Part shown: one piece after another, positions 28,270 through 63,235 of the stretch
Layout: each line of letters starts with the position of its first letter
How positions within the stretch are numbered: the first letter of the stretch is position 1
From: Flectonema sp. DT1601
Lineage: Eukaryota
NCBI GenBank assembly: GCA_964019425.1
Contig: OZ025805.1
Coordinates: 310,001 to 374,000, forward strand
DNA: 64,000 nt
Direction of reading: 5' to 3'
The notes under the pieces: model-generated
Databases searched by the model: none
What the model was told of the DNA's origin: nothing
Seen by the model: only the letters and a program-made list of their open reading frames with translations
Translations under genes and position numbers: made by a program

Positions 28270-28304
<35 letters not shown>

Positions 28305-28354
28305 CCAGTCAAAGTACTTTTTTTTTCCCAGAAAAAAAAAAAAAAAAAAAAAAA

Positions 28355-42310: not shown

Positions 42311-43391
42311 TGAAATAGTTGTCAAAACATTGGTTCGACGTGCTGAGAATGTTCTTCTGAGTCACGTGTCACCATCACCAACTACACCCTCGTGTAAATC
42401 AGGAAACCGGAGCCTCACTCAGAATATCACCGAATGGTGGATGTCTGAGGCATCAGAACCAGACGAGTCATGCAAAGAACGCTGGATAATAAGAGACGGG
42501 GAAATAATTAAAGTCTTTAGGAGGTATCCGGAATTCGGAAAAAACTTTGTGCGGAATTAGGGGTTTTCCCTTTTATTTCTTGTTGTTTTTACAAAACTTT
42601 TTTGGGTGGTGTACAACAGAGAAAATTAAAGTTCCGGGGACCCAACGGAGAATTATAAATTATCGCGAAGGACAGTATTTGGGTTGACTTTCTTTCGAAG
42701 CTCACACTCTTGAATGTACCGCGTCATTTATGATATGCAGTACGAGAGAGGACACTTTAGTTATATTGGTAAGCCCCAGGCATGATTCAATGTAAGGATC
42801 GTATTTATATAATTGTTGCCGCCTGGCGTTTGGAACACAACATCCACACATTCTTTACACAGCAGCCATATATTAACAGCCCCTTACTCAAAAAAGAAGG
42901 CAACAATGCAAGTTTTTGTGACGTGTCCTGGTTGGAGACTCCCTGCAGTGACAGTGACGGCTGGTGCTGATTCAGTTGTGAACGACGTGTTGACGGCGGC
43001 GGCTGGGGAGTGGGATGTGGATCCGGATGAAGTTGAACTCTCGTTTGCTTGTGATACCCTTTGCGAAACTGATCGGCTGGCAGATCATAGAGTGGTTGCA
43101 GACAGCGAGTTGGAAATGTGGAAGAAGCAGTTTAGGATATTCGATAAAAGCTGGTTTGTTGATGATGCAAAACGGGAGAAGCTGCTTCTTTGGATGAGAG
43201 ACCACATTACGGAGTACTTATATCTGGACACCCCGACATTCACAGAAGATGGTTGCCTCACTGTTGACGGTGAGCTGCTTCCTTCAGATGCCGAACAGAT
43301 TGCTTTCCGCAATTTAAATTCCAACAACACAAACATCTCACTGGTTACTACTATCGGAGATAAATTCTTGTTTCGTTGTTCACAAATTACT

Positions 43392-46325
43392 AGGGATCAC
43401 GACACCTGCCTCCTCGCGGCGGTCCCGGACGACTTCGATAGGGGTCGACAAGACGGTGTCAAACACAAGAGATGCCAACACCATCAACACCAACCACCAC
43501 ATCCAGAGCATCCACACACTGGATGTTTCCTATCAAAGAAAGAAAGAAACAAACTGGCCCATGCCTTGAATGGCAATGGTGGAACAAGGAAGGACAGCAG
43601 AGACCGACGCCCGCGGGACGACACTCGCGACAGGGACGAGGACCGCACGGACAAGGAAGAACGCCGGCTGGCGAAACTCGAGAAGGAAAAACTCGAGTCG
43701 CTAGACGAAATCGAGGAAGAGAAGCAGCGGCTGGGGCAACAGAGAATGGCCATGGAACAGCACCACCACCAGAAGGAAACCAACCTTCAAGGACAAGAAA
43801 AACAGTTGGAACAGCAACGCCAACACCAACAACAAGAACTGCAAAGTCAGTACCACCAACAACAGCAGCAACTGCAAAGCCACCATCAGCTGAAGGAAAC
43901 GGAAAGTCTCCAGAAGGAGCAAAACCTACAGGCTCAACTCAAAGAGCAACATCAGCACCAACAGAAGGAATTGGAGAAGCAATACCGCCAACGACAACAG
44001 CAACTGGAAAGCCAGCAGCAGAAGAAGGACGCCGAGTCTGAACAGCAAACGCATCTGACTCGGTCACAACTACAGAAGGAAAAGGAATCCTTCCAGACGG
44101 AGAAGGAACGGCTCCACCTCCAGCTGGATCAGCAGCTAAAGAACGAGAAGGAGCACCTCCACCGAAAGCTCAAGGAGCAGATTGGACAGGAAAAAGTCCA
44201 ACAACAACAAAAGCTCCAACAGAAGGAAGAAGAAATTCAACGGCGTGAGGAAGAGGTGAACCGAGGACAGCACCAACTACACCAACAGCAGCAACAACTA
44301 GAGCAGCAGCAACAGCAATCGCAACATCAGCAACTGGAACTACAACAACAACGGCAACAACAACAACAACAGCATCAACAACTGGAACTGGAACAACAAC
44401 AACTACAACAGCAACTGCAACTGCAACAACATCGACAACCGCAACAACAACCGCAACAGCAACCCGTACACTACATGCAACATCAACCGTATGCAACGTA
44501 CGACACCTACGCCCAGCAGCAGCAGTCTTCCCACTACGAAGGACTACAACAGGAACTGAAGCGCGAGAGAGAGGAGAAAAGCGAACTACGCGAGATGCTC
44601 CGAACTCTCCAACAACAACTGGACGGATTGAGAGAAGAACTCAAGGCCCAACATGCTGAGGCGAAGAGGCAGCAGGAAACGGCGGGACGGGAAGCGAGAG
44701 AGATGCAAGAACGTTTCTTGCTAGAACTCGAAGCGGAACGGGTCCAGATCAGAGGACTCAACTCGCTGAGAGAAGAGGAAGAGGAACCTCAGATGGACAC
44801 CACCCCTGATCAGGAAGTAAACACGGAAGTGAAGCAAACGCCACCGGTGAAGCTGCCCCAAGACGGTATGAGGGAGCTGGACGCCTCACGCAAGAAGCTG
44901 ATGAAAGAAATCAATGAAGGGCAGGTAGCCGGACGATCGGCCATCCAAGAGCAGATGGTCCGAGAGGCCGGGAGACTGGCGCAGACTCAGAAGAGCTGGG
45001 AGAACGCAGCACGCAAGGAGCGATCCAGGGTGGATAACCTCTCGCTGGCACCGGAATACTGGCCAGAGGGAATGGCGATCACGAAGGAGCAGTACGACGC
45101 CGGTGCAAAGGGAGTACACCTCACCACCAGAGAGGAGGCAAGGAAGAGGATGTCGGGAACACCTCCGGGAGCCTGGGAAACGTTATCCCTAGTAACCCTG
45201 GAACCACCATCAGACACGGCGCAGAAAGTACAGGTAGTACTTAAGGAGACGACGAGCGACGGCGAGAAGAGAATTCTCAAGCAGCTCTGGATGACAACAC
45301 TGGGAAGGGTGGTTGTACCATCCGGAACAGACGTCGTGCGGACGGAAAGCACGAGGGAGATGGTTGTCCGGGTGGACAAAAAATGGTCCGGAGAGAAGAG
45401 ATGGTCGGAAGTGAAGCGCTCCCCGTTCAGAGCAACGGAGGAATTGAAGAAGATGCCGGGGTATGTCGATACGTACAACCCGCGGATCGGAGACCAGAGC
45501 GTCACGGTGATGCTCAGGGTGAAGGTAGCCGAAGTGAAGAACTTCCTCCGAGAATCGGGGAAGGACGGCGTCTTCACCAAGGAAAAGGATCCGAGAGAGG
45601 AACGAGCAGTGAAGGCAGCGGTCATTTGGCTACCGAAGGACGAGACGCTCGGAATCGCTCGGGACAAGGCTGTAGAAGTCGATGGAGGGCTGGGACTCGT
45701 GGTAAACGAACACGGACTTGGGCTTCGAGTGACCAGCTGGCAGGAAACGGCGGCGAGGGAGAAACTGCACCTGCCGGCTAAGCTACCGGAAACAAAGATC
45801 ACGGGGATCCCGATCGGCACAACCACCGACGAAGCGATCAAGTGGCTGATCACGAAGGAAGGCTGGGAAGTGAGGAAGACGAAGGAAGGCGTACGGAACG
45901 GCATGCGATGGATGGTCGTCCGCGGTCCGGTGAGAACGCAGGAAACCATCACGGTGGATGGCGTCCTGTGCATGGTGGAGGCTGGGAAACAGAAGGTGGA
46001 AGTCGACCCGAAACGGAAGGAGACCAAACGCCCGAATGCGACACCGACAAAACCGGAGAAAAGGCGTGACCCGACGGAGGGAACGGGAGGAAAGTGGTAC
46101 ACTCGATTGGAGTTCATCGAGTTTCATGGGAAGAAGAAGGGACAACGCCTATGGTTAGAAGCCAGCAACCCAACACCAACTACGACGGCACCTACGAAGG
46201 CAGCGACCGCAACGACAACAGCGAGAAAGGAGCCCAAGTCGACAAAAAAGAAGGAGAACAGCTCAGTGGACGAGAGATTGGACCGACTGGAACGTCTACT
46301 GATGGCGTTCATGGAACGGAATTGA
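43392..46325 (+). CDS. Retrotransposon ORF1 (Q/E-rich coiled coil plus C-terminal globular region); true start unknown
   Basis: Element-derived part of ORF 42813-46325, in frame with the upstream UBL-LRR fragment. The first in-frame Met inside the element is near 43746. Confidence 0.8.
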   Translation, partial: RDHDTCLLAAVPDDFDRGRQDGVKHKRCQHHQHQPPHPEHPHTGCFLSKKERNKLAHALNGNGGTRKDSRDRRPRDDTRDRDEDRTDKEERRLAKLEKEKLESLDEIEEEKQRLGQQRMAMEQHHHQKETNLQGQEKQLEQQRQHQQQELQSQYHQQQQQLQSHHQLKETESLQKEQNLQAQLKEQHQHQQKELEKQYRQRQQQLESQQQKKDAESEQQTHLTRSQLQKEKESFQTEKERLHLQLDQQLKNEKEHLHRKLKEQIGQEKVQQQQKLQQKEEEIQRREEEVNRGQHQLHQQQQQLEQQQQQSQHQQLELQQQRQQQQQQHQQLELEQQQLQQQLQLQQHRQPQQQPQQQPVHYMQHQPYATYDTYAQQQQSSHYEGLQQELKREREEKSELREMLRTLQQQLDGLREELKAQHAEAKRQQETAGREAREMQERFLLELEAERVQIRGLNSLREEEEEPQMDTTPDQEVNTEVKQTPPVKLPQDGMRELDASRKKLMKEINEGQVAGRSAIQEQMVREAGRLAQTQKSWENAARKERSRVDNLSLAPEYWPEGMAITKEQYDAGAKGVHLTTREEARKRMSGTPPGAWETLSLVTLEPPSDTAQKVQVVLKETTSDGEKRILKQLWMTTLGRVVVPSGTDVVRTESTREMVVRVDKKWSGEKRWSEVKRSPFRATEELKKMPGYVDTYNPRIGDQSVTVMLRVKVAEVKNFLRESGKDGVFTKEKDPREERAVKAAVIWLPKDETLGIARDKAVEVDGGLGLVVNEHGLGLRVTSWQETAAREKLHLPAKLPETKITGIPIGTTTDEAIKWLITKEGWEVRKTKEGVRNGMRWMVVRGPVRTQETITVDGVLCMVEAGKQKVEVDPKRKETKRPNATPTKPEKRRDPTEGTGGKWYTRLEFIEFHGKKKGQRLWLEASNPTPTTTAPTKAATATTTARKEPKSTKKKENSSVDERLDRLERLLMAFMERN
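43393..43460 (+). ncRNA. HDV-like self-cleaving ribozyme at the LINE 5' end
   Basis: P1 GGGAUC/GGUCCC, P2 GACACC/GGUGUC, P3 GCC/GGC, L3 UCCUCGC, P1.1 GG, P4 CGACUUC-GAUA-GGGGUCG, J4/2 ACAAGA with candidate catalytic C43449. Confidence 0.8.
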
Positions 46326-49300
46326 CCGGCGGAGGACGGAAGGAACTGGGCGGAGACACGGAGACGTCTCCTGCTACAAGCTGGCGACGTTGAGAGGAAC
46401 CCCGGACCGAGACCACGAATCGATGGGCTCACCGTGGGAACAATCAATGTCACCACACTGGAAGGAAAAATAGATGCCATCACAGATCTGAACCTAGATC
46501 TGATAGCTCTACAGGAAACTTCTCTGACGGGCCCACAGCAACGCCAGATGAAAAAACAGCTCGGTGAGAGAGGATGGGAAGCGACGTTCGGATTAGAGTG
46601 CAAATTACTAACCGATGGGCAAAAGACGTGGACGGCGGCGGGAGGCGTGGCCATCTTGACGCGCACTGGTACACCGGTGAGAAGGATAAAACATGAACGG
46701 CTCGACAACACGGGACGATTCGTACACGCGGGAGTGTCGTACGGAAATGGCAAGGTACTGCACGTATTCTCGTTCTACGGAGACGTACGTTCGGCGGTCC
46801 ACACGGAAGAGTTGATTGCGGAGATGCTCGTGGAAGCAGCAGCTCTGGGTGATGTTCCCGTATTGATAGCGGGGGACTTCAACGTCGAAACAACGGAATC
46901 GCCGGCGCTTCTGTCGGCTTTCGCACACGGACTCTGGATAGATGCCGCCGTCTCGATGGGAAACATGACACCGACAAGCGAAGCGGGAAAAGGACTTCGT
47001 AGAATCGATGCTATTCTGATGAACCGCGGGGCGGCGACAGCAATCTCGAATGACACAACGATCCATGTGCATAAGAGTGAGCTGATCCCGACACACAAGC
47101 CGGTCATCATTAGAAAGCTCAACATCTCACGCTACAACGAGAAGGCTCCTAGGCTGATAGTACCGAAACAGTTGGATACCTCCGAGACAACGGACCCGCG
47201 TGAGGGGAAGGCCGAAAGGCAACTCCACTGGACGCGAGCAGTAGCGACGGAGGATCCTGACAAGATGCTGGAGGCGCTTGGAGAGATCATCGAAAGATAC
47301 CTTCTGACGGGAAAGCTGGAGGTAAGTAACCCAGCCAAGTACACGGGACGCGGGAAGAAGCGTGAGCCTGTGATGTGGACGAATGCGGCGAAACAAGACG
47401 GGAGGGGAGCGACGTGCAGGGAAACGCGGAGAAGACTGCAGAAGATCCGCGTCCTGGAGGAAGTGACGAAAATCACAAAGCAATACGATGGTCCGACGGT
47501 GCCGTCCCACGAAGTGATGAATCTCTGGAAAAAATTACGGAAACTCGATCCGACGACGGGATCCGAAATACCACAGACGGAGGAGCTTCGGATACTACTT
47601 CAACAAGCGAGACAGGAGCAAGCGATAGAAAGCAAGAAGCTCCGAACCGAACGCATCCGCATGTGGAAACGGAATGTTGTCGATAATTGGAACGACGACC
47701 GCACGAAGGTTTTCCAGTGGATCAGGAACGTCGAGCAATCGAAGACTGTTCTGATGGAGAAGGCAGATGGAAGCTGGACGGCCAACTGCTCCGAGATGGA
47801 TGAGGCCATGCACGCGGCATGGGACCCCATACTCAAAAAGTACTTGTCAGACCCAGAACCAGACTGGATGAAGTTCGAAGAACGATACAGCAACTACATC
47901 GAGGAACACCCGATGCGATGCGAAGATATCACCGGGGGGGACGTTGCAAAAGCCCTCAGAAGGACTAGCTCGCGCAAAGCAGCTGGGGTAGACGGCTTCA
48001 GGATATCGGAGCTCAAGTTGCTACCGGAGGACATGATTCAGATGATAGCGGAATTCTACAACATGGTGGAGAGAACACACTGGCCGGAAGCACTTCTCAC
48101 AGCACTGGTGTCGGCCATACCCAAAGGGGCAGGGACGAAACCACTGGAGCAGAGACCCATTACGGTGACATCCGCACTTTACAGGCTTTGGGGCTGTATA
48201 CGTATGGAAAAGGATGTAATGGAGTGGCAAGAGAAGTGGGCTCACGACGGGCAATACGGCTACCGGAAGGGGAGATCTACGCTCGACCTCAGCTGGAAGA
48301 TAGCACTAGACGTGGAACACGCAACTCTCTACGGAGAAGAGGTTGCAGGAGTGACCACGGACTTCAGGAAGTGTTTCGACCTGATCCCGCACGACATCCT
48401 CCTGAAATTAGTGAAGGAATTGGGCCTAAGTGATAAGATCCTGAGAACTGTGACGGATGTCTACCGGCGACTCAGAAGGAGATTCAAGTTCCCGAGCGGC
48501 GTCGGAGAAGAATTTGCCACCACCAACGGAATACTGCAAGGATGCCCGCTCAGCGTGGTGCTCTTCAATGCGCTGAGCTCGATACTCAGCAAAGCAATCG
48601 AGAGGGAAGCCGATGTGACGCCCGGATCATATGCGGACGACCTGACATTGTTTGGATCACGAACGAAGCTACAAGAAGGCGTAGAAGTCGTTGCGGAGTT
48701 CTGCACCCTGACCGGACAAGAACTCGCACCTCAGAAGTGCAAGTGGTTCTCGAACAGAGACCAGGGCCAGACCAACATCACAATGGGGGACACAACACTA
48801 GACTTCGATGACAGTGTCGATATCGTGGGATGCCACCTCAGTATGAAAGGAACCACCAAGCAGATGGGGAGGATCACAGAAGAAGTGCTCGATAGAGCGA
48901 GGCGAATCCGGTTACTTCCGCTCAGATATCAAGCGAAGGAACAGATAGCTGCAGCTAGTGTCATGCCCAAGGCGCTCTTCGGAACGGCACTGTACGATCC
49001 CGATACGACGCGACTCGGACTGCTGAGAAGAGCAATGGCAACGGGGATTTTCCGCAAACTTGGAGGGAAAAGAACTAAGATGTCGCACACCATGGGCCTA
49101 ACGCTACTCTGCAAGGGACATTGTGTGGATCCCGCGACGTACATTAGGTACAATAGACTCCTTGCACTCACCAGAATGCTACCGAAGCTAACTGAGAGGA
49201 TACGCAGGGTATGGGAACACCTGCAGGAGCACACTGAAGCGACGAGGGGACCAGTCGGCCTCGCCCTGAGTACTCTGAAGGAACTTGGATGGGAATGGTC

Positions 49301-51062
49301 AACTTTCTCGGTCTTCGAAGGTCCGGGAGGGACGACCGAACACGGACGGCTGGATGCGGGGCGCTGGCGGCACGATGTCAGAGAGGCGTGCAGGCGTTTC
49401 ACCTGGAACAAAACAATTGCGGAAACGAGACGGGTAAACCTGAGAGGTATTGAAGCGGGCATCGACCGGAAAGAGACCCTGAAGGTCCTGAAGGAAGGAA
49501 AGGGCGACCCCTACCTGCGCGGAGTAGTGAAGCACTGCCTCCTGGACAACGTGTACACTGGCTCGATGAAGGCGGGAAACAAGAACTGCGCGCACTGCGA
49601 GGAGGTTGACGACGTAGAGAGGACGGAGACCCTCGAGCACGTGAACTGGGATTGCAGAGCTTATGACACAATCCGACAGGAATATCCGCAAGTGATGCTA
49701 CAAGTTCGATGCGATTGGCCCAATTGCCTGAGGCTACTCGGCATCAAGCCCGACAATGTGGAACTGCCGGCGGGGCTCACTGGAGACCTACAACGAATGT
49801 TCGCACGGATCAGGCTCCGCAGGGACGACTATCAACAACTGGAGGAGAGACGGCTGATGGTTGTGGAATACGCTGGGAACAAGGAACCGGAAGTAGTTAT
49901 GCGATACAACAACAAACTGGAAAAGTACATGCCAGTATACACCCAATGGCCCGAAGCCCTTGGATTGACCTTGTACTTGGCGCTTGCGAGCTACCTGAGG
50001 GAACTGAAGTGGCCTCGACAGCCAGACGGAGTCGGAGTCACCTTCCTGGAATTAGCGATCGACTTCGAAGCGTATGCGGGGGTTGACATACCGACCACAG
50101 TCCACGAAGGCCACGTAGCGAAGTGCACCAAAGACAGAGCCGCCGGGAAGAAAGCTGACGTCATGTGTGGACTGATGCTAAGATTGAACTTGGTTCACAA
50201 GCATTTAGAAGGCGAGGAACAAAGAACCTTTCCCGACTACTGCGTAGGAAGCAACAAAGCCTTACGTCCACTAGGAGCCCCAGTACTGAAAGGTTTGAAG
50301 AAACGACCAGCTTTTCTGATGGGAGACGAAACAGTAGACACAATTCGGAGGACGGTCCAGGAGGCGAACGACGGAAAAGCTGACAAAATCAGATTCGGCT
50401 TCGAGACTGAGTGCAGGCACTCGAACGAGAGGGAAGGGAGAGCGGAGGAATGGATAACCGCGGCACGACTTTTCCCATCAAAGGAAAAAGACGTACAGCT
50501 GAGGAGGGAGCTCTGCGAGCGAGGACCGACACGCCCGCCACCCGAGGTCGTCAAGAGACCGGGCATCGCGGAGGGACAAGGAACGATGAACTCGACGTGC
50601 TACGGACACTTCAAGAAGAAATGCAATAGTTGTCGACGGGCCGGAAACACCATCTACCAGTGCTGCCACAACCATCACACTCTGGGGGATGAAGATGGAC
50701 AAATACCGATATGGGACTTTTGCAGCAAGCACAAGCTTACTCCATGTGCAGTCTGCATAGTGATCGGCAGAGGGTCTGAGCAATGTTGCAGAAACAGCCA
50801 CCACCGATGCTGTCACCACGAGATGGCTCCCTGCAACGACTGCAAGCGGAATCCGGATCCGGAACAACGGACTGCCACGAAATGCTGCAACAAAAAGCAT
50901 CACGGGCCAATTATAAGGACGTTGACGAGGAGGGCGAAGCAGCCGACGAAGCATGATATGCAAACCAGCACATCGCTTCTAAAAGTAGGTTTCACCAAAC
51001 AAATGAAACCGAAAGCAGAGGAAACCCCGGAAAGGGAACCACAGGACAGGGGGTTAACTTAG
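46326..51062 (+). CDS. Retrotransposon ORF2: 2A-like peptide, APE endonuclease, reverse transcriptase, CCHC finger and C-terminal Cys/His repeats
   Basis: Open from the codon after the ORF1 stop. APE motifs: GTINV, ALQET, GGVAIL, GDFN, RIDAIL, PTH. RT motifs: RPITV, QYGYR, DFRKCFD, QGCPLS, YADD. Zinc finger: CAHC..ETLEHVNWDC. Confidence 0.95.
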   Translation, partial: PAEDGRNWAETRRRLLLQAGDVERNPGPRPRIDGLTVGTINVTTLEGKIDAITDLNLDLIALQETSLTGPQQRQMKKQLGERGWEATFGLECKLLTDGQKTWTAAGGVAILTRTGTPVRRIKHERLDNTGRFVHAGVSYGNGKVLHVFSFYGDVRSAVHTEELIAEMLVEAAALGDVPVLIAGDFNVETTESPALLSAFAHGLWIDAAVSMGNMTPTSEAGKGLRRIDAILMNRGAATAISNDTTIHVHKSELIPTHKPVIIRKLNISRYNEKAPRLIVPKQLDTSETTDPREGKAERQLHWTRAVATEDPDKMLEALGEIIERYLLTGKLEVSNPAKYTGRGKKREPVMWTNAAKQDGRGATCRETRRRLQKIRVLEEVTKITKQYDGPTVPSHEVMNLWKKLRKLDPTTGSEIPQTEELRILLQQARQEQAIESKKLRTERIRMWKRNVVDNWNDDRTKVFQWIRNVEQSKTVLMEKADGSWTANCSEMDEAMHAAWDPILKKYLSDPEPDWMKFEERYSNYIEEHPMRCEDITGGDVAKALRRTSSRKAAGVDGFRISELKLLPEDMIQMIAEFYNMVERTHWPEALLTALVSAIPKGAGTKPLEQRPITVTSALYRLWGCIRMEKDVMEWQEKWAHDGQYGYRKGRSTLDLSWKIALDVEHATLYGEEVAGVTTDFRKCFDLIPHDILLKLVKELGLSDKILRTVTDVYRRLRRRFKFPSGVGEEFATTNGILQGCPLSVVLFNALSSILSKAIEREADVTPGSYADDLTLFGSRTKLQEGVEVVAEFCTLTGQELAPQKCKWFSNRDQGQTNITMGDTTLDFDDSVDIVGCHLSMKGTTKQMGRITEEVLDRARRIRLLPLRYQAKEQIAAASVMPKALFGTALYDPDTTRLGLLRRAMATGIFRKLGGKRTKMSHTMGLTLLCKGHCVDPATYIRYNRLLALTRMLPKLTERIRRVWEHLQEHTEATRGPVGLALSTLKELGWEWSTFSVFEGPGGTTEHGRLDAGRWRHDVREACRRFTWNKTIAETRRVNLRGIEAGIDRKETLKVLKEGKGDPYLRGVVKHCLLDNVYTGSMKAGNKNCAHCEEVDDVERTETLEHVNWDCRAYDTIRQEYPQVMLQVRCDWPNCLRLLGIKPDNVELPAGLTGDLQRMFARIRLRRDDYQQLEERRLMVVEYAGNKEPEVVMRYNNKLEKYMPVYTQWPEALGLTLYLALASYLRELKWPRQPDGVGVTFLELAIDFEAYAGVDIPTTVHEGHVAKCTKDRAAGKKADVMCGLMLRLNLVHKHLEGEEQRTFPDYCVGSNKALRPLGAPVLKGLKKRPAFLMGDETVDTIRRTVQEANDGKADKIRFGFETECRHSNEREGRAEEWITAARLFPSKEKDVQLRRELCERGPTRPPPEVVKRPGIAEGQGTMNSTCYGHFKKKCNSCRRAGNTIYQCCHNHHTLGDEDGQIPIWDFCSKHKLTPCAVCIVIGRGSEQCCRNSHHRCCHHEMAPCNDCKRNPDPEQRTATKCCNKKHHGPIIRTLTRRAKQPTKHDMQTSTSLLKVGFTKQMKPKAEETPEREPQDRGLT
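46368..46409 (+). other. 2A/StopGo ribosome-skipping motif LLLQAGDVERNPG|P
   Basis: Manual translation of 46326-46433 in the ORF1/ORF2 frame gives PAEDGRNWAETRRRLLLQAGDVERNPGPRPRIDGLT, which matches D(V/I)ExNPGP. Confidence 0.9.
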
Positions 51063-51453
51063 GTTGGCCGAACCAGTGCCTCGTCATCTCACCGTGCTAG
51101 CAAGCCTGAATGACAGCACTCAAAATGGTACATATATTCCTGTTCACAAATCACTTCTCTTGACCTTTCAGGTCTTCATAGTGTCACCACAATAGGAATT
51201 CAATTCTTGTCCTGTTTACTAATAACTTCTCTTGACCTTTCAGGCCTTAGTAGTGTCACTACTATTGGAAGTGCATTCTTGTCTTACTGTTCACAAATCA
51301 CTTCTGTAAACTTTTCAGGTCTTAGTAGTGTCACCACTATTGGTGATTATTTCTTGTCTTTCTGTTCACAAATCACTTCTCTTGACTTATCATATCTTTG
51401 TAGTGTCACTACAATTAGTTATTGTTTCTTGAATTCCTGTTCACAAATTACTT

Positions 51454-51526
51454 GGGGAACGAAACTCGGACAGCGCGCCTCCTCGTGGTGTTGCCTGGAT
51501 GCACCTTGTGTGTAACTAGAGTGCTG
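51454..51526 (+). ncRNA. HDV-like ribozyme at the 5' end of SINE-like copy 1 (one P1 mismatch)
   Basis: P1 GGGGAAC/GUUGCCU, P2 CAGCGC/GUGCUG, P3 GCC/GGU, L3 UCCUCGU, P1.1 GG, P4 UGCAC/GUGUA, J4/2 ACUAGA (C51516). Confidence 0.78.
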
Positions 51527-52151
51527 ACGTATTGTTGTTGTTGCTGTGTATTCTTTTACCCCCGTTTTATTTTCCGGTAGCCTAACCTTTAAAAAAAAAA
51601 AAGGACAACATAGCAGAAGGTCAGGTGATCCGGCCCGGGATACTCAGGCACCCAGAGCTCACAGGGGCCACCGGGTTTTTATTTTTTCCTTAGTGGCATG
51701 ATTTCCCTTTACCCCCATTTCCTTCAAACTTCCCCCGTTTAGTCTTTTCACGCATGGGGGGATTATAAGTTCAGGTCGCCTGAAATGTATTAACAGTATC
51801 AGCCCCGCGAGTTACTCGGGGAGCTCCCATGCAATGTGTGGAGAAAGAGGCCATCCCTCCCCCTACCTCTCTGCTTTACTACGTCGTTTTTTGTGTGTGG
51901 CATTTCTTTTCTTATATTCTTTTCTTTTCAATCTTGTTCCTTCACACGCGGTTGTTCGAGCGGTTGTGAACCACCTTGGGTCTCTTACGGTCTCCAAGCT
52001 ACTGTTGTGCGAAGAAACAAATCTGTTGGTGCGGTGGCCTTCCGACGCCACCTGGACCGCAACTCGTTCACAGTGCCCTACCCGGTTCTCCACCGGACCG
52101 CCTGAGCGACGGGATCCATGGGATTCAAACCCCTAAACACTGGTTAATTTT
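51454..52151 (+). mobile_element. Non-autonomous SINE-like retroelement, copy 1 (698 bp), with 20-bp TSD
   Basis: Interrupts an LRR repeat. TTCCTGTTCACAAATTACTT is duplicated at 51434-51453 and 52152-52171. Nearly identical to 59977-60671. Confidence 0.93.
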
Positions 52152-52630
52152 TTCCTGTTCACAAATTACTTCTCTTGACCTTTCAGGTCCTAGTAGTATC
52201 ACCACTATTGGTGATTGCTTTCTCGATGAATGTGACTCTCTTGAATCTGTCCAGCTTCCTGAAAGTAATAGCGCTCTCTTTGAGGAGTCTGTGAAAGCAG
52301 CGATTGATCATTCTGGATAAAGTGGTGAATTGATTCTTAATTTTTTTTTGTTATTTTTATTTTTATCCACTGGGAAGTGAAACGAAGAAAATATTAAACT
52401 TTTGTGAACTTGCGAAACTGAAATCAATTTCTGTAGCTGATTAGAAATATTTTTTCGAAAAAGGAAAACTCGCACATCCTTCCCGAGTGAAAATCCTGTC
52501 AAAATGATCAAAAGGTAATCGGTGATCTGTTTTTCCCTTTTGAGTGTAATATATCGTTTCTTTCCTTTAGTGTAATTGTCTCATTTTATTTTATTGGTAT
52601 CATTTCTCTTTCTTATCATTACTTTATTTA

Positions 52631-53054: not shown

Positions 53055-53059
53055 TATAA

Positions 53060-55485: not shown

Positions 55486-57024
55486 ATGACAATGCAAGTT
55501 TTCGTGACGTGTCCTGATTGGGGACTCCCCGCAGTGACAGTGACGGCTGGTGCTGATTCGGTTGTGAGCGACGTGTTGACGGCGGCGGCTGAGGAGTGGG
55601 ATGTGGATCCGGATGAAGTTGAACTCTCGTTTGCTGGTGATACCCTTTGCGAAACTGATCGGCTGGCAGATCATGGAGTGGTTGCAGACAGCGAGTTTGA
55701 AATGTGGACGAAGCAGTTTAGGATATTCGGTAAAAGCTGGTTTGTTGATGATGCAAAACGGGAGAAGCTGCTTCTTTGGATGAGAGACCACATTACGGAG
55801 TATTTATATCTGGACACTGCGACATTCACAGAAGATGGTTGCCTCACTGTTGACGGTGACCTGCTTCCTTCAGATGCCAAACAGGTTGCTTTCCGCAATT
55901 CAAATTCCAACAGCACAGCCATGTCATCAGTTACCACTATCGGAGATGAGTTCTTGTATGAGTGTTCAATCACTTCTCTTGACCTTTCAGGTCTTAGTAG
56001 TGTCACTACTATTGGAGATAAGTTCTTGTATTTCTGTTCAGAAATCACTTCTGTTAACCTTTCAACTCTTAGTTGTGTTACCATTATTGGTAATAATTTC
56101 TTTTATTACTGCAATCATATAACTTCTCTTGACCTTTCAGGTCTTAGTAGTGTCACCGCTATTGGTTATAATTTCTTGTCTTCCTGTTCCCAAATCACTT
56201 CTCTTGACCTTTCAGGTCTTGGTAGTGTCACCACCATTGGTGAAGGTTTCTTTTCTTTCTGTGAACAAATCACTTCTCTTGACTTTTCATGTCTTAGTAG
56301 TGTCACCACTATTGGTGATGAATTCTTGTCTTCCTGTGAACAAATCACTTCTCTTGACCTTTCAGGTCTTAGTAGTGTCACCACTATTGAGAATGATTTC
56401 TTGTCTTGCTGTAAACAAATCACTTCTCTTGACCTTTCAGGTCTTGGTAGTGTCACCGCTATTGGGAATTATTTCCTGTATTACTGTGATGAAATCACTT
56501 CTCTTGACCTTTCAGGTCTTAGTAGTGTCACCACTATTGGGAATTATTTCCTGTATAACTGTGAACAAATCACTTCTCTTGACTTTTCATGTCTTAGTAG
56601 TGTAACCACTATTGGTGATGAATTCTTGTCTTCCTGTGAACAAATCACTTCTCTTGACCTTTCAGGTCTTAGTAGTGTCACCACTATTGGAGATAGATTC
56701 TTGTCTTTCTGTAAAGAAATCACTTCTGTAAACTTTTCAGGTCTTAGTAGTGTCACCACTATTGGTGATTATTTCTTGTCTTTCTGTGAACAAATCACTT
56801 CTCTTGACCTTTCAGGTCTTAGTAGTGTCACCACTATTGGTGATTATTTCTTGTCTTCCCGTTCACAAATTACTTCTCTTGACCTTTCAGGTATTAGTAG
56901 TGTCACAACTATTGGTTATCGCTTTCTCGATGAATGTGACTCTCTTGAATCTGTGCAGCTTCCTGAAAGTAATAGCGCTCTATTTGAGGAGTCTGTGAAA
57001 GCAGCGATTGATCATTCAGGATAA
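55486..57024 (+). CDS. Ubiquitin-like + BspA-type LRR protein, copy 6 (14 repeats)
   Basis: Intact 512-aa paralog. Confidence 0.88.
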   Translation: MTMQVFVTCPDWGLPAVTVTAGADSVVSDVLTAAAEEWDVDPDEVELSFAGDTLCETDRLADHGVVADSEFEMWTKQFRIFGKSWFVDDAKREKLLLWMRDHITEYLYLDTATFTEDGCLTVDGDLLPSDAKQVAFRNSNSNSTAMSSVTTIGDEFLYECSITSLDLSGLSSVTTIGDKFLYFCSEITSVNLSTLSCVTIIGNNFFYYCNHITSLDLSGLSSVTAIGYNFLSSCSQITSLDLSGLGSVTTIGEGFFSFCEQITSLDFSCLSSVTTIGDEFLSSCEQITSLDLSGLSSVTTIENDFLSCCKQITSLDLSGLGSVTAIGNYFLYYCDEITSLDLSGLSSVTTIGNYFLYNCEQITSLDFSCLSSVTTIGDEFLSSCEQITSLDLSGLSSVTTIGDRFLSFCKEITSVNFSGLSSVTTIGDYFLSFCEQITSLDLSGLSSVTTIGDYFLSSRSQITSLDLSGISSVTTIGYRFLDECDSLESVQLPESNSALFEESVKAAIDHSG

Positions 57025-57744
57025 AGTGGTGAATTGATTCTTAAAATTTTATTGTTATTTTTATTTCTATCCACTGGGAAGTGAAACGAAGAAAATATTA
57101 AACTTTTGTGAACTTGCGAAACTGAATTCAATTTCTGTAGCTGATTAGAAATATTTTTTCGAAAAAGGAAAACTCGCACATCCTTCCCGAGTGAAAATCC
57201 TGTCAAAATGATCAAAAGATAATTGTTGATCTGTTTTTCCCTTTGACTGTAATATATCGTTTCATTCCTTTAGTGTAATTGTCTTGTTTTATTTTATTAG
57301 AATCATTTCTCTTTTCTTACCATTACTTTATTTCTTATTTTCTGATCGAATGTGGCTCCGATGGACTTTATGAAATCAGTTCTTTTGAAATAGACCAATT
57401 GATGGATCCGATTTATTAATTAACTGGAATGAAGTCCCTTAGAACTTACTGATGAAGGCCTAAGAGGGACAAGCAGTATGAGATTAAGGCTCCTGAAAAC
57501 TACGTATTCCACAAGTGTATTATGGAACAGCGGAACAATCGTGTTCTTATAATTTTTCTTTTTTTTTTTTTTTATATGAGGTCAAAAGTCTGGTACCGTT
57601 TTGGTCAACGGTAAACTGCGGGCATGTACAACTCAATCGAGACCCAACACCGTCTGAAACATGCCCCAAAGAATTCAATTCCGGGTGTGAGATCTCACTT
57701 TATTCGTAATACTTGTAAAAAAAAAAAGAAATCCTGCATTTTTT

Positions 57745-58394
57745 GCTTGTGGCTTACAGAGAACTGGCTTGTGGCTACAGAGAACTGGCTTGTGGCTTAC
57801 AGAGAACTGGCTTGTGGCTTACAGAGAACTGGCTTGTGGCTTACAGAGAACTGGCTTGTGGCTTACAGAGAACTGGCTTGTGGCTTACAGAGAACTGGCT
57901 TGTGGCTACAGAGAACTGGCTTGTGGCTTACAGAGAACTGGCTTGTGGCTACAGAGAACTGGCTTGTGGCTTACAGAGAACTGGCTTGTGGCTTACAGAG
58001 AACTGGCTTGTGGCTTACAGAGAACTGGCTTGTGGCTACAGAGAACTGGCTTGTGGCTACAGAGAACTGGCTTGTGGCTTACAGAGAACTGGCTTGTGGC
58101 TACAGAGAACTGGCTTGTGGCTTACAGAGAACTGGCTTGTGGCTTACAGAGAACTGGCTTGTGGCTTACAGAGAACTGGCTTGTGGCTTACAGAGAACTG
58201 GCTTGTGGCTTACAGAGAACTGGCTTGTGGCTTACAGAGAACTGGCTTGTGGCTTACAGAGAACTGGCTTGTGGCTTACAGAGAACTGGCTTGTGGCTTA
58301 CAGAGAACTGGCTTGTGGCTACAGAGAACTGGCTTGTGGCTTACAGAGAACTGGCTTGTGGCTTACAGAGAACTGGCTTGTGGCTTACAGAGAA
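57745..58394. repeat. Minisatellite, about 30 units of GGCTTGTGGCT(T)ACAGAGAACT (22/21 bp)
   Basis: Direct tandem repeat with no spacers; the only variation seen is a one-T deletion. Confidence 0.97.
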
Positions 58395-58733
58395 ACCCAA
58401 ATATTACATATGCAGCAAGTATCATCCCCCAAATCTATATTCTAATATTTCATTATAAAAATAAATGGAATTATCGGTAAAAATAATACTTTTAACGTGA
58501 TAATTATTATTAGTATCACGTTCTACACTTTTTGCGCTTCCAAAGGACGTAGTCACATTCTGATCGCAAGAGCCCTGAGTAGAACTCGGGAGAGTTACCA
58601 TCAGTTTTGAGTTGATTTGTATGCGTCAAAAAAAAGTCAATTGCTGTCAAGTCCCATTGTGCAACTTGAAATGCATAGTTATACCCAAACTGTACTTCTT
58701 CTGCTGATAATAATGTGATGATGACTCTTGTGG

Positions 58734-58789
58734 TAAGGAGTCTTCTCCTTAGGTACCTGTGGCAAGGTACTGAAGGAGAAGACTCCTTA
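58734..58789. repeat. Near-perfect inverted repeat (17-bp perfect arm plus 6-bp inner stem)
   Basis: TAAGGAGTCTTCTCCTT / AAGGAGAAGACTCCTTA enclosing GTACCT-GTGGCA-AGGTAC. Confidence 0.9.
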
Positions 58790-59976
58790 TAATCAAGTTT
58801 TATAATTAAATCATCTCCGTATCAGAAGTGTTTTCTGAATAGACTGAAATGAATAAAAAATACCCTGTGATGATAACAACTCCATTTTTTATTCTCCTTT
58901 TTTTATTTTCACTAAAATCTTTCTAATATTTTATTGCATGGCATTCACTCCAGATCGAAGTTATTATTATTTTTAAAACAGCGACGCGGATGTAAATTAT
59001 TTGAGACAGAGGCTATCTGGAGTTCTACATTTTATATTTTACTCTAACTTCTGACTTCTTAAGGAAAATAAATACATGAAGTAGAAATGTAAGGAAGTAC
59101 AGTATTGATGTATGTGTTTGAACTGTTCAATAATCAGAAAGACTCACAAGCAGCGATTCGTACTTCTGTTTTTCCTTTGAAATCAATGAATAATGTAAAC
59201 CTTGTGCTGAATGAGTCACATCCTTGTAGTGTTCACTTTCATTCATTCAGGTCACTGAAACAGATGAATCCTTTAGTAAAACAGTATTCATACCCCTTTG
59301 AGGGAATGTAATTACATGTCGCATCCTCGTAGTATTCGATACCCAGATGTCATTTGTACGAGTTCTTTCTAACAGAACCTTTCCCACCTCACAGCAAATT
59401 ATTTAAAAATGACAATGCAAGTTTTTGTGACGTGTCCTGATTGGGGACTCCCCGCAGTGACAGTGACGGCTGGTGCTGATTCAGTTGTGAACGACGTGTT
59501 GACGGCGGCTGCTGAGGAATGGGATGTGGATCCGGAGGAAGTTGAACTCTCGTTTGCTGGTGATACCCTTTGCGAGACTGATCGGCTGGCAGATCATGGA
59601 GTGGTTGCAGACAGCGAGTTGGAAATGTGGAAGAAGCAGTTTAGGATATTCGGTAAATGCTGGTTTGTTGATGATGCAAAACGGGAGAAGCTGCTTCTTT
59701 GGATGAGAGACCACATTACGGAGTATTTATATCTGGACACTGCCACATTCACAGAAGATGGTTGCCTCACTGTTGACGAGGGGTTGCTTCCTTCAGATGC
59801 CAAACGGATTTCCTTCCGCTATTTAAATTGCAATAGCACGGTAATCTCACAGGTTACTGCTATTGGAGATAACTTCTTGTGTAACTGTTCAGAAATCACT
59901 TCTCTTGACCTTTCAGGTCTTAGTAGTGTCACCAGTATTGGAGATGATTTTTTGTTTAATTGTTCACAAATCACTT

Positions 59977-60049
59977 GGGTAACGAAACTCGGATAGCGCG
60001 CCTCCTCGTGGTGTTACCTGGATGCACCTTGTGTGTAACTAGAGTGCTG
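59977..60049 (+). ncRNA. HDV-like ribozyme at the 5' end of SINE-like copy 2
   Basis: Canonical 7-bp P1 GGGUAAC/GUUACCU with G1-U wobble, P2 UAGCGC/GUGCUG, P3 GCC/GGU, L3 UCCUCGU, P1.1 GG, P4, J4/2 ACUAGA (C60039). Confidence 0.85.
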
Positions 60050-60671
60050 ACGTATTGTTGTTGTTGCTGTGTATTCTTTTACCCCCGTTTTATTTTCCGG
60101 TAGCCTAACCTTTAAAAAAAAAGGACAACATAGCAGAAGGTCAGGTGATCCGGCCCGGGATACTCAGGCACCCAGAGCTCACAGGGGCCACCGGGTTTTT
60201 ATTTTTTCCTTAGTGGCATGATTTCCCTTTACCCCCATTTCCTTCAAACTTCCCCCGTTTAGTCTTTTCACGCATGGGGGGATTATAAGTTCAGGTCGCC
60301 TGAAATGTATTAACAGTATCAGCCCCGCGAGTTACTCGGGGAGCTCCCATGCAATGTGTGGAGAAAGAGGCCATCCCTCCCCCTACCTCTCTGCTTTACT
60401 ACGTCGTTTTTTGTGTGTGGCATTTCTTTTCTTATATTCTTTTCTTTTCAATCTTGTTCCTTCACACGCGGTTGTTCGAGCGGTTGTGAACCACCTTGGG
60501 TCTCTTACGGTCTCCAAGCTACTGTTGTGCGAAGAAACAAATCTGTTGGTGCGGTGGCCTTCCGACGCCACCTGGACCGCAACTCGTTCACAGTGCCCTA
60601 CCCGGTTCTCCACCGGACCGCCTGAGCGACGGGATCCATGGGATTCAAACCCCTAAACACTGGTTAATTTT
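59977..60671 (+). mobile_element. Non-autonomous SINE-like retroelement, copy 2 (695 bp), with 20-bp TSD
   Basis: TAATTGTTCACAAATCACTT is duplicated at 59957-59976 and 60672-60691. Confidence 0.93.
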
Positions 60672-63235
60672 TAATTGTTCACAAATCACTTCTCTTGACC
60701 TTTCGGGTCTTACTAGTGTCACCAGTATTGGAGATTGTTTTTTGTATTATTATTGTTCAGAAATCACTTCTCTTGACTTTTCCGGTCTTAGTAGTGTCAC
60801 CAGTATTGGAAATTATTTCTTGTATGAGTGTTCAAAAATTACTTCTCTTGACCTTTCAGGTCTTAGTAGTGCCACCACTATTGGTGATTATTTCTTGTAT
60901 GAGTGTTCAGAAATCACTTCTCTTGATCTTTCTGTTCTTAGTGATGTGAATAAAATTGGTGAGTGCTTCCTCGATAATTGCAGCGCCCTGAAAAGTGTTC
61001 AGCTGCCTCAAAATAATAGAGCTCTCTTTGAACTGTCTGTTAAATGTAAAGTGTTAAGTTGATTCTTGGTTGTCATTTATTTTTTGTATTTTTGTCGGGT
61101 TGAGTCTCCTCCTGCGGTGAAATCCCCTTGGGGTAGATAAAGAACGTTTCTTTCCTTTAGTGTAATGGTCTTATTTTATTTTAGTATCATTTCTCTCTCT
61201 TATCATTACTTTATTTATTATTTTCTGATCTAATGTGGCGTTATCAGCTCAAACAATTTTGCTAACTAAACTAAACTAAACTAAACTAAACACTGTCTGC
61301 TCACGTGGGCGGTAGGTTTAGGTTGTCATTTGTTTCAGGTTATTCTACGTCTGTGAGAGTCTCACGGTTGCTGGATCCTACTTGCTAATCGCCCGTTCTT
61401 TTGCTGATTATTTTCATATAAAATCTTGTAATCCGGGTGTGATTTTTTTTTGCGAAATCAATTATTCCCTTTATCAGACTCTACTCCCACTTCTCTTCCC
61501 CTAAGTACTACTACATCTGCACCCTTTCATAGTGTAGATATTTCTTTTGTTGGATACAATTCTGGTGTTTGTCTTGACCTTCAATCTTAACATATACTTC
61601 TTTCTCAGGTGGCAATATAAGTGATGGAAGGCGCAAATTACTCATTTCCTCTTCATTTCAGCAAACCCAACATATACAGTTCTGGTGTTTGTCTTACCTT
61701 TTTAGCTGCTGATTTAATTCATATGCTGGTATGGTTGTTGTTAATAAGACAAAAAAGAAAATTATATTTTGCATTTAACAAGTATCGTAAGAACAAAAAA
61801 GAATGTTGGGGGCAGCACACGTACCCTTTATCAGTTTAAGTGGGTTCACGGTTTCGTGCACAAACAAAAAACTCACAAAATGTCGAAAGTAGATATCCCA
61901 CAAGATTTCGACTGGTCAACTGTCGAGGTGCCTGAGATAGTCACCAGGATGGATTAGATGTATCTTCTCAATACACCTGACATGTAACTCCAATGTGAGA
62001 ATCTATTTCAATAATTCCTCTCATTGTTGTTCGCTTCTCAGCTTCGGACTTTATGAGCGCCAAGGAAGGAAGTTACGATGATGTTGAAGGTCCCAGAGAT
62101 CCACCCATTACGTCTGTTAACATCACAGATACATGTGGCGAATACTAAAGATGCCGGGCAGGCAAGCTTCTTTCAGAGATTGTTGCCTATGAGATGGTAG
62201 TTGCACACATTCATACAGCGCAGAAACTGCTGAAACTCAACCCCAGGTAGAGAACAGTACTGTGTGTATGAGATAGTGTCTTTTAGAGGGGAGTTATTAT
62301 TAACTAGGTCATCATGTTTTCAACAGTAACAGTAATCGCCTCTCTCCTTTTTCTTGATACATGGAGGAGTTTTATACTATGGTACCACTCGAGGTTACTA
62401 GTTCATCTTGAACCTGATTTTTCATGTCAGGTGTTACAACTGACAGGCAACCACTGACTTCCACCTTCTTGTCCCTGTTCTTCCACAATTCCTTTCCTAC
62501 TTCTATCCCAGTCTTATTCACTTCTGCTATCCCCAGCCACTGGAACATAGAGTTTGTAGCAGTGTCCTCAAGCAGCTATAGATTCCAGATAAATTCCAGT
62601 AATCCTGAGGGTGTACTTATTGTGAGTAGCATGCTCACATTGCTCAACCCATCACTGCCAGCAAGGGTGACTCAGAATCACCACCCGATATCGTACTCTG
62701 CAGTTCTCACGGGATCTATGATTCTCCTGTCTCATCACTTCTCCTGTTCCTATCATTCCGGTCTTCATAGGAATCCAGGGTGTAAACAAATTTCTGCAAT
62801 GTAGCTGCTAAGCTGGTTTTTGAGTATTTTGAGGGCAACCAACAGAGATACAAGGCAAAAGTACCAGAAACAGTCAAAAAATATGGAATTTTGAAACTGG
62901 TGAGCAGTTAGAGGATGCCCCAGTACCGGATTTGAGTTTTTTGGATAGTATTTTCGTGGGGTGGTGAGCTCGGATTGGGTGTTAGGTGCCCACAGAATAG
63001 CCTGGTAAAAATTGGGGGGGGGGGGGTTTCTGCACCGCCTCATATTTTATTGCATGGCATTTGCTCCAGATCGAAGTTATTATTATTTTTAAAACAGCTA
63101 CCCGGATGTACATTATTTTAGACAGAGGCTATCCGAAATTTTCAACTTTTTCATTATAGTTTTTTATAAACAATGTTTTTTTTTAATCTAAACTTCCATC
63201 ACAGGATACTTTTTCTCACCACAAGAACTCTTGCG

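What the first reader, a model, noticed from the sequence alone, without database searches (positions are those of the whole stretch)
43373..60691. Site-specific LINE plus partner SINE-like element that target one register of a protein-coding LRR repeat
Seen: three insertions (LINE 43393-51136; short elements 51454-52151 and 59977-60671) sit in sense orientation at the same position of the 75-bp LRR unit, immediately after TGTTCACAAATYACT(T/A). In each case the downstream flank restarts 20 bp earlier in the unit. The two short copies have different, perfect 20-bp TSDs (TTCCTGTTCACAAATTACTT and TAATTGTTCACAAATCACTT), so they are independent insertions rather than a duplication. Known: site-specific APE elements (R1, Tx1 group, TRAS/SART) target rDNA, snRNA/tRNA loci, telomeric repeats or other transposons, and euglenozoan CRE/SLACS elements target SL-RNA genes using a restriction-like endonuclease. 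Inference: this is an APE LINE, with a non-autonomous passenger, specialised for a multicopy coding repeat. I know of no described example.
Basis: partly seen in the sequence, partly recalled or inferred. Interest (0 to 1): 0.92.

Follow-up and report, generated by a model that had tools for sequence, protein, structure and literature searches.

The report
LINE targeting a coding LRR repeat
A LINE retrotransposon and a short non-coding element of a protist (likely a diplonemid) sit repeatedly at the same base of the 75-bp coding repeat of a leucine-rich-repeat gene family, likely because the LINE's endonuclease targets that repeat, and both start with a predicted self-cleaving ribozyme that would free them from the host gene's transcript.

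Summary
Real, and it holds beyond the window. The 7.7-kb APE-RT LINE and two ~695-bp elements sit in sense at one register of BspA-type LRR units. The short copies have different perfect 20-bp TSDs. The LINE's flanks differ at 5 of 20 bases. No genome is held, so predicted proteins served as a proxy. Of 13 ORF1 proteins of this family, 5 reach the element's 5' end, on 5 contigs, and all 5 follow an LRR unit: 4 at the exact base, 1 two bases short. Host Ubl regions are 69-74% alike, the LINE parts beside them 92-97%. One more short-element junction in the protein collection and two in run X1 also lie in LRR units. New here: all three elements begin with a predicted HDV-like ribozyme. ORF2 follows ORF1's stop in frame through a 2A-like motif. 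ORF1 lacks an early in-frame AUG and is fused to the host frame. Base-exact targeting of a repeated coding unit was not found in my searches. New variant of a known kind; interest 0.62.

The parts
42906..43392 (+). 5' part of host Ubl-LRR gene (SUMO/ubiquitin-like domain plus first LRR unit), in frame with LINE ORF1
   Evidence: paralogue domains LRR_5 and weak Rad60-SLD; the fusion protein is in the protein collection as P0107
43373..43392 (+). 5' target copy of the LINE (imperfect, 15/20 identical to 51137-51156)
   Evidence: 19/20 identical to unit 1 of the paralogue at 31991
43393..51136 (+). Full-length APE-RT LINE, 7744 bp, 54% GC, no poly(A) tail
43393..43460 (+). Predicted HDV-like ribozyme (6-bp P1, P2, P3/L3, P1.1, P4, J4/2 C-N-A-G-A) starting at the first base of the LINE
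   Evidence: descriptor scan; activity not tested
43393..46325 (+). ORF1 frame: Gln/Glu-rich region plus a C-terminal domain without a Pfam match; first in-frame Met 117 codons after the junction; ends in TGA
46326..51062 (+). ORF2, 1578 codons, in the same frame directly after the ORF1 stop; no AUG before the endonuclease start
46386..46409 (+). 2A-like core D-V-E-x-N-P-G-P upstream of the endonuclease
   Evidence: motif definition in PMC3708506 passages; same motif in Flectonema homologue P0005
46416..47135 (+). AP-endonuclease (APE) domain
   Evidence: Pfam PF03372 E=1.5e-6; model pLDDT 94.8; best Foldseek hits are LINE-1 EN, E=3.8e-14
48141..48767 (+). Reverse transcriptase domain (YADD)
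   Evidence: Pfam PF00078 E=1.2e-23
49587..49655 (+). CCHC-type zinc knuckle (C-x2-C-x13-H-x4-C); no RNase H after it
51063..51136 (+). LINE 3' UTR, 74 nt, ends ...TACATATA
51137..51453 (+). Host LRR units between the LINE and short element 1; 51137-51156 is the LINE's 3' target copy
   Evidence: 127/128 identical to the paralogue at 39707 from 40178 on
51434..51453 (+). 5' TSD of short element 1
51454..52151 (+). Short non-autonomous element, copy 1 (698 bp, ends TTTT); predicted ribozyme 51454-51526 with one P1 mismatch
52152..52320 (+). 3' TSD of copy 1 (52152-52171) and the host gene's last LRR unit and C-terminal cap
59415..59976 (+). 5' part of a second host Ubl-LRR gene, ending in the 5' TSD of copy 2 (59957-59976); frame stops 7 codons into the element
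   Evidence: P0109
59977..60671 (+). Short non-autonomous element, copy 2 (695 bp); predicted ribozyme 59977-60049 with perfect 7-bp P1 and G1-U wobble
60672..61062 (+). 3' TSD of copy 2 (60672-60691) and the rest of the second host gene
31991..40864 (+). Four intact Ubl-LRR paralogues (31991, 35647, 37677, 39707): empty targets
55492..57024 (+). Intact Ubl-LRR paralogue with about 13 empty units

Best explanation
A two-ORF APE-RT LINE and a ~695-bp non-coding element sit at one base of the 75-bp coding unit of a BspA-type LRR gene family, likely placed there by sequence-guided target-primed reverse transcription by the LINE's own endonuclease. Shown: the same register and orientation at every classifiable junction, distinct perfect 20-bp TSDs for the short element, young elements in old and diverged host genes. 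Inferred steps: (1) the host gene's (likely polycistronic) transcript runs through the element, and the predicted HDV-like ribozyme cuts off the host part exactly at the element's first G; (2) ORF1 is made without its own early AUG (ribozyme-assisted initiation as proposed for R2/L1Tc, or from the host AUG), and ORF2 by read-through or reinitiation at the in-frame UGA, with the 2A-like motif releasing the APE-RT protein; (3) the APE nicks the bottom strand one base before the codon preceding Cys and the top strand after ...ATYACTT, giving a 20-bp TSD; recognition is degenerate (C-x-x-I-T units, CSQI possibly favoured); (4) the short element brings its own ribozyme and likely borrows these proteins in trans. 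Each gene offers about 5-13 targets and there are many paralogues, so the coding repeat would serve as a redundant landing pad, much as rDNA does for R1/R2.
For: Window: (junctions, TSDs, P=4.4e-5). Off-window LINE 5' junctions: 13 ORF1 proteins of this family were recovered. 5 of 13 include the leader, and 5 of 5 follow an LRR unit, on five contig lengths: P0107 (window), P0064, P0074 and P0246 at the exact register; P0249 two bases short, its N-terminus matching LRR units read in the +1 frame. Unit positions differ (about 1, 4, 9, 1). In the three pairs with both parts, host Ubl regions are 69-74% identical while the LINE parts are 92-97% identical, so the insertions post-date paralogue divergence. 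Short element: P0253, another gene on the window's contig, ends CSQIT|WVTKLG. In run X1 one contig crosses the 5' junction and one the 3' junction, both in LRR units unlike the window's two; a 91%-identical LINE 5' variant in X1 keeps 17 nt of LRR flank. Ribozyme: the descriptor gives 3 hits on both strands of 64 kb, starting exactly at 43393, 51454 and 59977; shuffles gave 2 hits in 12 strands. APE fold. ORF1 ends at the same residue in 6 of 6 proteins that reach its end. Sister families (ORF1 34-58% identical) have their own Met, and none of the 37 listed sister proteins shows an LRR N-terminus; several truncated ones follow poly-Lys (A-run) flanks.
Against: No genome was available. Pieces of the LINE lie on at least 17 contig lengths, but junctions are known for only 5. 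8 of 13 ORF1 proteins lack the 5' end, and only one LINE 3' junction was seen. Both ORF1 searches scored only about 7,950-7,990 candidates and said so, so copies may be missed. P0248 is an inverted, truncated copy whose flank could not be classed. The LINE's own flanks are 5/20 different. LINE and short-element 3' ends are not significantly alike (p=0.17) and neither folds better than shuffles. The SINE evidence from proteins can only show LRR hits. Only 6 of 10 loose ends were shown. Rfam found no ribozyme family here. Nothing was tested biochemically.
Confidence: 0.8

Rival explanations
1. Relaxed consensus, not gene targeting: the endonuclease reads a short degenerate motif (as ingi/L1Tc do) that happens to recur in every LRR unit, so LRR genes are a hot spot while many copies sit at look-alike sites elsewhere.
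For: The junction units vary (CSQIT, CERIT, CSRIT, CSEI). Ingi-clade elements show only 'relative site-specificity' yet pile up in RHS genes (PMC3820030 passages; PMC7563717 passages). At least 12 contig lengths with LINE pieces have no known junction.
Against: 5 of 5 classifiable full-length 5' ends are in LRR units, and no ORF1 protein starting at the first internal starts (as a full-length copy in unrelated DNA would give) was among the 13 recovered. This rival differs from the best reading in degree, not in mechanism.
Confidence: 0.12
2. Passive spread: one chance insertion each of LINE and short element was copied among LRR paralogues by gene conversion or unequal crossing-over, which keeps the register without any targeting.
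For: The paralogues are tandem and mosaic, two are identical (35647/37677), and the LINE's own flanks come from different paralogue types (133/141 to 31991 upstream, 127/128 to 39707 downstream), so recombination does occur here.
Against: The two short copies each carry their own variant on both sides, which needs a TSD made anew at each site. Residues a few codons from the LINE junction differ between copies and host Ubl regions are about 70% alike. Two unrelated elements would still have to start at the same base and orientation (1 in 150).
Confidence: 0.04
3. Specificity is real but the short element is moved by another, unseen LINE with the same target, or specificity is partly RNA-guided: a tail-less co-transcript runs on into donor LRR sequence that anneals to the nicked target.
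For: No shared 3' tail, different 3' termini, no poly(A) on either. Annealing of flanking target sequence carried in the RNA is proposed for R2 5' junctions (PMC3774820 passages), and donor-derived bases could explain the LINE's imperfect flanks.
Against: TSIDER1 shares only the 5' signature with its ingi partner, so a missing 3' homology does not exclude pairing. The short elements' TSDs are purely local. The sister families seen do not show LRR flanks.
Confidence: 0.2

Closest known systems
Ingi/RIME (T. brucei) and L1Tc/NARTc (T. cruzi) inserting in RHS genes
   Same: Euglenozoan APE-RT LINE plus non-autonomous partner sharing one insertion site in the coding region of a multigene family (PMC7563717 passages); 5' HDV-like ribozyme and 2A-like motif before the APE (PMC4035085, PMC5814959, PMC3708506 passages); fixed TSD length.
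   Different: Here: 20-bp TSD (12 bp there), two ORFs (one there), no RNase H, no poly(dA), and the short element is not a deletion derivative. The target is a unit repeated 5-13 times per gene rather than one site per gene. Ingi/L1Tc are dispersed with only relative specificity.
Tetrahymena REP LINE in LRR genes
   Same: Two-ORF LINE with RT and endonuclease; 76% (T. thermophila) and 86% (T. malaccensis, functional copies) lie beside LRR repeat units (PMC6564038 passages).
   Different: REP favours introns of 90-bp-exon genes and is excised as an IES from the somatic nucleus. This element cuts the coding unit itself at one base, in an intronless gene. The passages read report no base-exact register, partner element or ribozyme for REP.
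Tx1-Mar LINEs with SINEU; R1 and Tx1 clades generally
   Same: APE-type target-specific LINEs; a LINE-SINE pair inferred from shared target (PMC4494074 passages).
   Different: Targets listed are rRNA, SL, tRNA and snRNA genes, transposons, microsatellites and telomeres (PMC4640811 passages), not host coding repeats. Clade kinship not tested.
R2 and its SIDEs
   Same: Sense insertion, co-transcription with the host gene, release by a 5' HDV-like ribozyme, and non-autonomous elements with their own ribozyme (PMC3774820, PMC6765202 passages).
   Different: R2 uses a restriction-like endonuclease, targets 28S rDNA, and SIDEs share the R2 3' UTR.

Membership tests
APE-type non-LTR retrotransposon (LINE) | N-terminal AP-endonuclease domain in the RT ORF | tested here: met
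   PF03372 above cut-off; top Foldseek hits LINE-1 EN
APE-type non-LTR retrotransposon (LINE) | Non-LTR reverse transcriptase | tested here: met
   PF00078; best PDB sequence hits L1 ORF2p, then R2
APE-type non-LTR retrotransposon (LINE) | Target-site duplication, no LTRs | tested here: inconclusive
   Register of a 20-bp duplication but 5/20 mismatches; no terminal repeat seen in the self-BLAST as far as displayed
Ingi/L1Tc clade | 12-bp TSD | tested here: not met
   20 bp against 12 bp
Ingi/L1Tc clade | Single ORF with RNase H after RT | tested here: not met
   Two ORFs; no RNase H hit, and the segment where relative P0118 has RNase H is absent
Ingi/L1Tc clade | Poly(dA) tail | tested here: not met
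   3' ends ...TACATATA and ...TTTT
Ingi/L1Tc clade | 5' HDV-like ribozyme (76-79-bp signature) | tested here: inconclusive
   HDV-like fold met by descriptor; sequence kinship to the Pr77 signature not tested
Ingi/L1Tc clade | 2A-like motif before the APE | tested here: met
   2A also occurs in Rex1, L2, Crack and CR1 clades, so it is not diagnostic
Ingi, Tx1, R1 or other named clade | RT phylogeny with Repbase reference elements | not testable with these tools
   No named reference RTs were available. The quick tree of 106 database hits groups the element with two Flectonema neradi LINEs and sister P0006 (SH-aLRT 100)
CRE/SLACS or R2 group | Restriction-like endonuclease after RT, no APE | tested here: not met
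   APE present; no Pfam hit in the C-terminal 720 aa
HDV-like ribozyme | Nested double pseudoknot P1, P1.1, P2, P3/L3, P4 with C in J4/2 | tested here: met
   3 of 3 elements by my descriptor (consensus recalled), 0 other hits, 2 hits in 12 shuffled strands; no Rfam hit
HDV-like ribozyme | Self-cleavage 5' of G1 | not testable with these tools
   needs a co-transcriptional cleavage assay
Classical SINE (Pol III, small-RNA head) | tRNA, 7SL or 5S-derived head | tested here: not met
   ARAGORN 0 genes, no Rfam match; the head is a predicted ribozyme
LINE-SINE pair | Shared 3' tail | tested here: not met
   local alignment p=0.17
LINE-SINE pair | Shared target site, orientation and TSD length | tested here: met
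Target-specific family (more than 20% of flanks in one repeat, criterion in PMC4494074) | Genome-wide flank census | tested here: inconclusive
   5 of 5 classifiable 5' ends are in LRR units, but only 5 of at least 17 contig lengths with pieces could be classed

The most novel reading that the evidence does not exclude
The LINE has given up its own ORF1 start codon and depends on landing in frame in an LRR gene: uncleaved host-element transcripts are translated from the host AUG into a Ubl-LRR-ORF1 fusion, while ribozyme-cleaved RNA serves as template. Codon-register targeting would then be required for the element's own expression. In support: in 5 of 5 leaders there is no in-frame Met before the LS-x-KE-x-N motif shared with sister families, whose ORF1 begins with its own Met 23-28 residues before that motif (3 of 4 sisters checked), and the frame is open from the host AUG. 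Against: a shuffled leader stays open 23% of the time, one junction (P0249) is out of frame, and ribozyme-assisted AUG-free initiation is an established alternative.
Probability: 0.2. Interest if true: 0.85.

Novelty: new variant of a known kind. Interest (0 to 1): 0.62.

Why it matters
Target-specific LINEs are catalogued almost wholly on RNA genes, transposons and simple repeats. This one appears to use the repeated coding unit of a fast-evolving protein family at base precision. It extends the safe-haven idea to coding repeats and gives a recent switch to study: sister families in the same collection have own-Met ORF1s and A-run flanks. The elements would truncate LRR genes (and cut their mRNA) and offer 8-kb homology blocks for recombination between paralogues, so they may shape LRR repertoires in a little-studied, abundant marine lineage. 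An APE with a 20-bp staggered, sequence-guided cut and a short trans-mobilised passenger is also a compact system for studying how APE domains gain specificity.

Tried and rejected
Whole-genome test: no G000. JGI metagenome scan with ORF2: 78 pattern matches, 0 confirmed. Sequencing runs: 3 listed, 1 holder (X1, 0.46 of words, depth about 2), no RNA holder listed; X2 and X3 gave only LRR or simple-repeat matches; the LINE 3' end was not covered by a listed contig. Rfam: 15 matches at E<=1, none at the elements and all below gathering score. ARAGORN: none. Short-element body against the LINE: no convincing homology (p=0.025 for a gappy sense alignment without correction, p=0.44 antisense) and no BLAST hit, so an internal-deletion origin was rejected. 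3' hairpins: z about 0; MFE folding cannot score pseudoknots, so it is uninformative for the ribozymes. My first descriptor missed the short elements through a backtracking fault, corrected. APE alone against PDB sequences: 0 hits. ESM Atlas for the ORF1 C-terminal domain: unanswered four times, so ORF1 function stays unassigned. Segmental duplication of the short element: rejected (different TSDs, different unit positions). A restriction-like endonuclease: no sign. 'Ambal' clade: 3 papers listed, not read, no test. Look-ups for proteins crossing the short element's 3' junction: not in the collection (6 of 10 queries absent). The careful tree did not finish; the quick tree is cited, with 13 ids of near-identical copies left out by design (119 hits, 106 kept). 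Earlier-findings look-ups: nothing for this genome or sequence.
Full report
OBSERVATION. The window holds eight starts of a tandem gene family, seven complete and one cut by the window end. They encode a SUMO/ubiquitin-like domain (weak Pfam hit) and BspA-type LRRs of 25 aa, 75 bp (PF13306). Five complete genes are intact. The gene at 42906 is split by a 7744-bp LINE and by short element 1; the gene at 59415 by short element 2. All three elements are on +, in the genes' sense, and start with GGG at the same base of the unit. The short copies are 99.1% alike and have different perfect 20-bp TSDs. Each TSD occurs only at its own two flanks in the window, and only 7 of 1128 pairs of empty units share a 20-mer (one duplicated gene left out). 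They sit in the last unit of one gene and the second unit of another. Same register and orientation for three insertions has P=4.4e-5 under a uniform null within arrays. The LINE's flanks have the same 20-bp register but differ at 5 positions. Its upstream flank is closest to the paralogue at 31991 (133/141) and its downstream flank to the one at 39707 (127/128), so recombination, conversion or donor-derived bases have altered that site.

THE LINE. ORF2 has an APE domain (PF03372; AlphaFold model pLDDT 94.8 from 34 sequences; top Foldseek hits are LINE-1 endonuclease structures), an RT, a CCHC knuckle and a Cys/His-rich tail. It has no RNase H: relative P0118 carries one between two segments that lie close together here. 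ORF2 follows ORF1's TGA in the same frame with no AUG before the endonuclease, and passes through a D-V-E-x-N-P-G-P motif also present in Flectonema protein P0005. ORF1 ends at the same residue in 6 of 6 proteins that reach its end, so the stop is no private mutation. Read-through or AUG-free reinitiation followed by 2A release is my inference. Named relatives are Flectonema neradi transcripts (58-61%) and Diplonema papillatum proteins (30-40%). A quick tree groups the element with the Flectonema proteins and a sister family, SH-aLRT 100. A diplonemid host is therefore inferred. D. papillatum genes are described as likely co-transcribed in groups, and its transposons as not yet rigorously identified (PMC10161547 passages).

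A descriptor for the HDV-like fold (consensus recalled, not from a call) gave 3 hits on both strands of the window. They start exactly at 43393, 51454 and 59977; twelve locally shuffled strands gave 2 hits in all. LINE and short element share the P3/L3 core and a C-N-A-G-A J4/2. Copy 2 has a perfect 7-bp P1, copy 1 one mismatch. The X1 copy has the copy-2 letters at all three variable sites plus an 11-nt deletion in the ribozyme's 3' part. Rfam did not detect them. Release from a host co-transcript is the known role in R2 and L1Tc (PMC6765202, PMC4035085, PMC3774820 passages).

BEYOND THE WINDOW. No genome is held. Because the LINE's leader is open in the host frame, gene callers fuse host and ORF1, so predicted proteins report 5' junctions. 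Two searches and cluster look-ups returned 13 ORF1 proteins of this family. Five include the leader. P0107 (window), P0064, P0074 and P0246 join at C-x-x-I-T|(W/R)-D-H-D. P0249's N-terminus matches LRR units in the +1 frame and is 2 nt short of that register; its 12 best ungapped matches in the window are all LRR units. They lie on five contig lengths, at about units 1, 4, 9 and 1. In the three pairs with both parts, Ubl regions are 69-74% identical against 92-97% for the LINE parts. That these contigs belong to the window's assembly or strain is inferred. Eight proteins start far inside ORF1 and cannot be classed, among them the inverted copy P0248. ORF2 has 22 cluster members, 15 listed. Pieces lie on at least 17 contig lengths, so most junctions remain unseen, and both searches scored a truncated candidate list. 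For the short element, P0253 is a further gene on the window's contig cut at CSQIT|WVTKLG. In run X1, one contig crosses its 5' junction and one its 3' junction, both in LRR units differing from the window's two. No loose end at an element terminus was among those shown (6 of 10, 13 of 18). X1 also holds a LINE 5' variant with 69 differences over about 790 nt that keeps 17 nt of LRR flank. A loose end in X1 resembles a library amplification adapter (recalled), so I do not use X1 as evidence of expression. Sister families begin with their own Met; none of the 37 listed proteins has an LRR N-terminus by inspection, and four truncated ones follow poly-Lys. This is a weak control, since own-Met copies hide their flanks.

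TARGET. The target is thus the conserved C-x-x-I-T part of the unit, with a possible preference for CSQI.

MECHANISM. Shown: shared register, local TSDs, domain content, frame relations. Inferred: co-transcription, ribozyme release, APE nicks 20 nt apart, TPRT, and use of the LINE's proteins by the short element. The pairing is the weakest link: there is no 3' homology (p=0.17), though TSIDER1 shares only a 5' signature with its proposed ingi partner (PMC3820030 passages). Passive spread by conversion is disfavoured by the locus-specific TSDs. A relaxed consensus with off-target copies cannot be excluded without the assembly.

COMPARISON. It works like ingi/RIME in RHS genes (PMC7563717 passages; the original 2002 paper was not held) and like R2/SIDE in its use of a ribozyme. 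It fails ingi-clade membership on TSD length, ORF number, RNase H and tail. Tetrahymena REP is a LINE associated with LRR genes, but with their introns (PMC6564038 passages). Reviews of target-specific families list RNA genes, transposons, microsatellites and telomeres (PMC4640811 and PMC4494074 passages). Ten searches showed no report of base-exact targeting of a coding LRR unit or of this family. I saw listings for those searches and passages for 13 papers (the above plus PMC5814959, PMC3708506, PMC12278014, PMC3447711). No full texts or supplements were read. The library lacks most subscription journals, and Repbase was not searched.

VERDICT. New variant of a known kind, interest 0.62. The boldest open reading, that ORF1 borrows the host start codon, has probability about 0.2.

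Noticed in passing
P0066, P0079, P0088, P0098 (sister LINE families, other contigs): 5'-truncated sister copies of two families follow similar flanks ending in His-(Ser)-poly-Lys, suggesting a shared A-run target different from the LRR site.
   Followed up: partly
P0004, P0005 (Flectonema neradi homologues); P0010, P0118: Relatives carry an N-terminal protease-like domain before the APE: a weak Josephin hit in P0005 (E=0.012, below cut-off) and OTU domains in P0010 and P0118. This element has an ORF1 there instead.
   Followed up: partly
window 51454-51493 against 59977-60016: All 3 substitutions between the two short copies fall in the first 40 of 695 nt, two of them in the same P1 pair; possibly a swapped 5' module or a sequencing error.
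   Followed up: partly
window 35647-36801 and 37677-38831: Two LRR paralogues encode identical proteins: a very recent tandem duplication or an assembly duplicate.
   Followed up: no
window 57745-58394: 22-bp tandem repeat, about 30 copies, 98% matches, between two LRR genes.
   Followed up: no
window 51596-51629: A 34-nt piece of the short element also lies in an X1 contig with unrelated flanks on both sides.
   Followed up: no
window 42029-42305: 117-bp repeat, 2.4 copies, in a Pro/Ala/Thr-rich ORF (41797-42318) upstream of the LINE's host gene.
   Followed up: no
window 12902-13819, 14022-19913, 24619-25521, 28259-30232: Long ORFs on + with TAGT-type glycosyltransferase, ABCA-type transporter, RING/TRAF and TPR-tyrosine-phosphatase domains, all co-directional with the LRR cluster.
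   Followed up: no
P0248 (other contig): Truncated LINE copy with an inverted segment (window equivalent 45391-45023) joined to a sense segment from about 45410, like a twin-priming product.
   Followed up: partly
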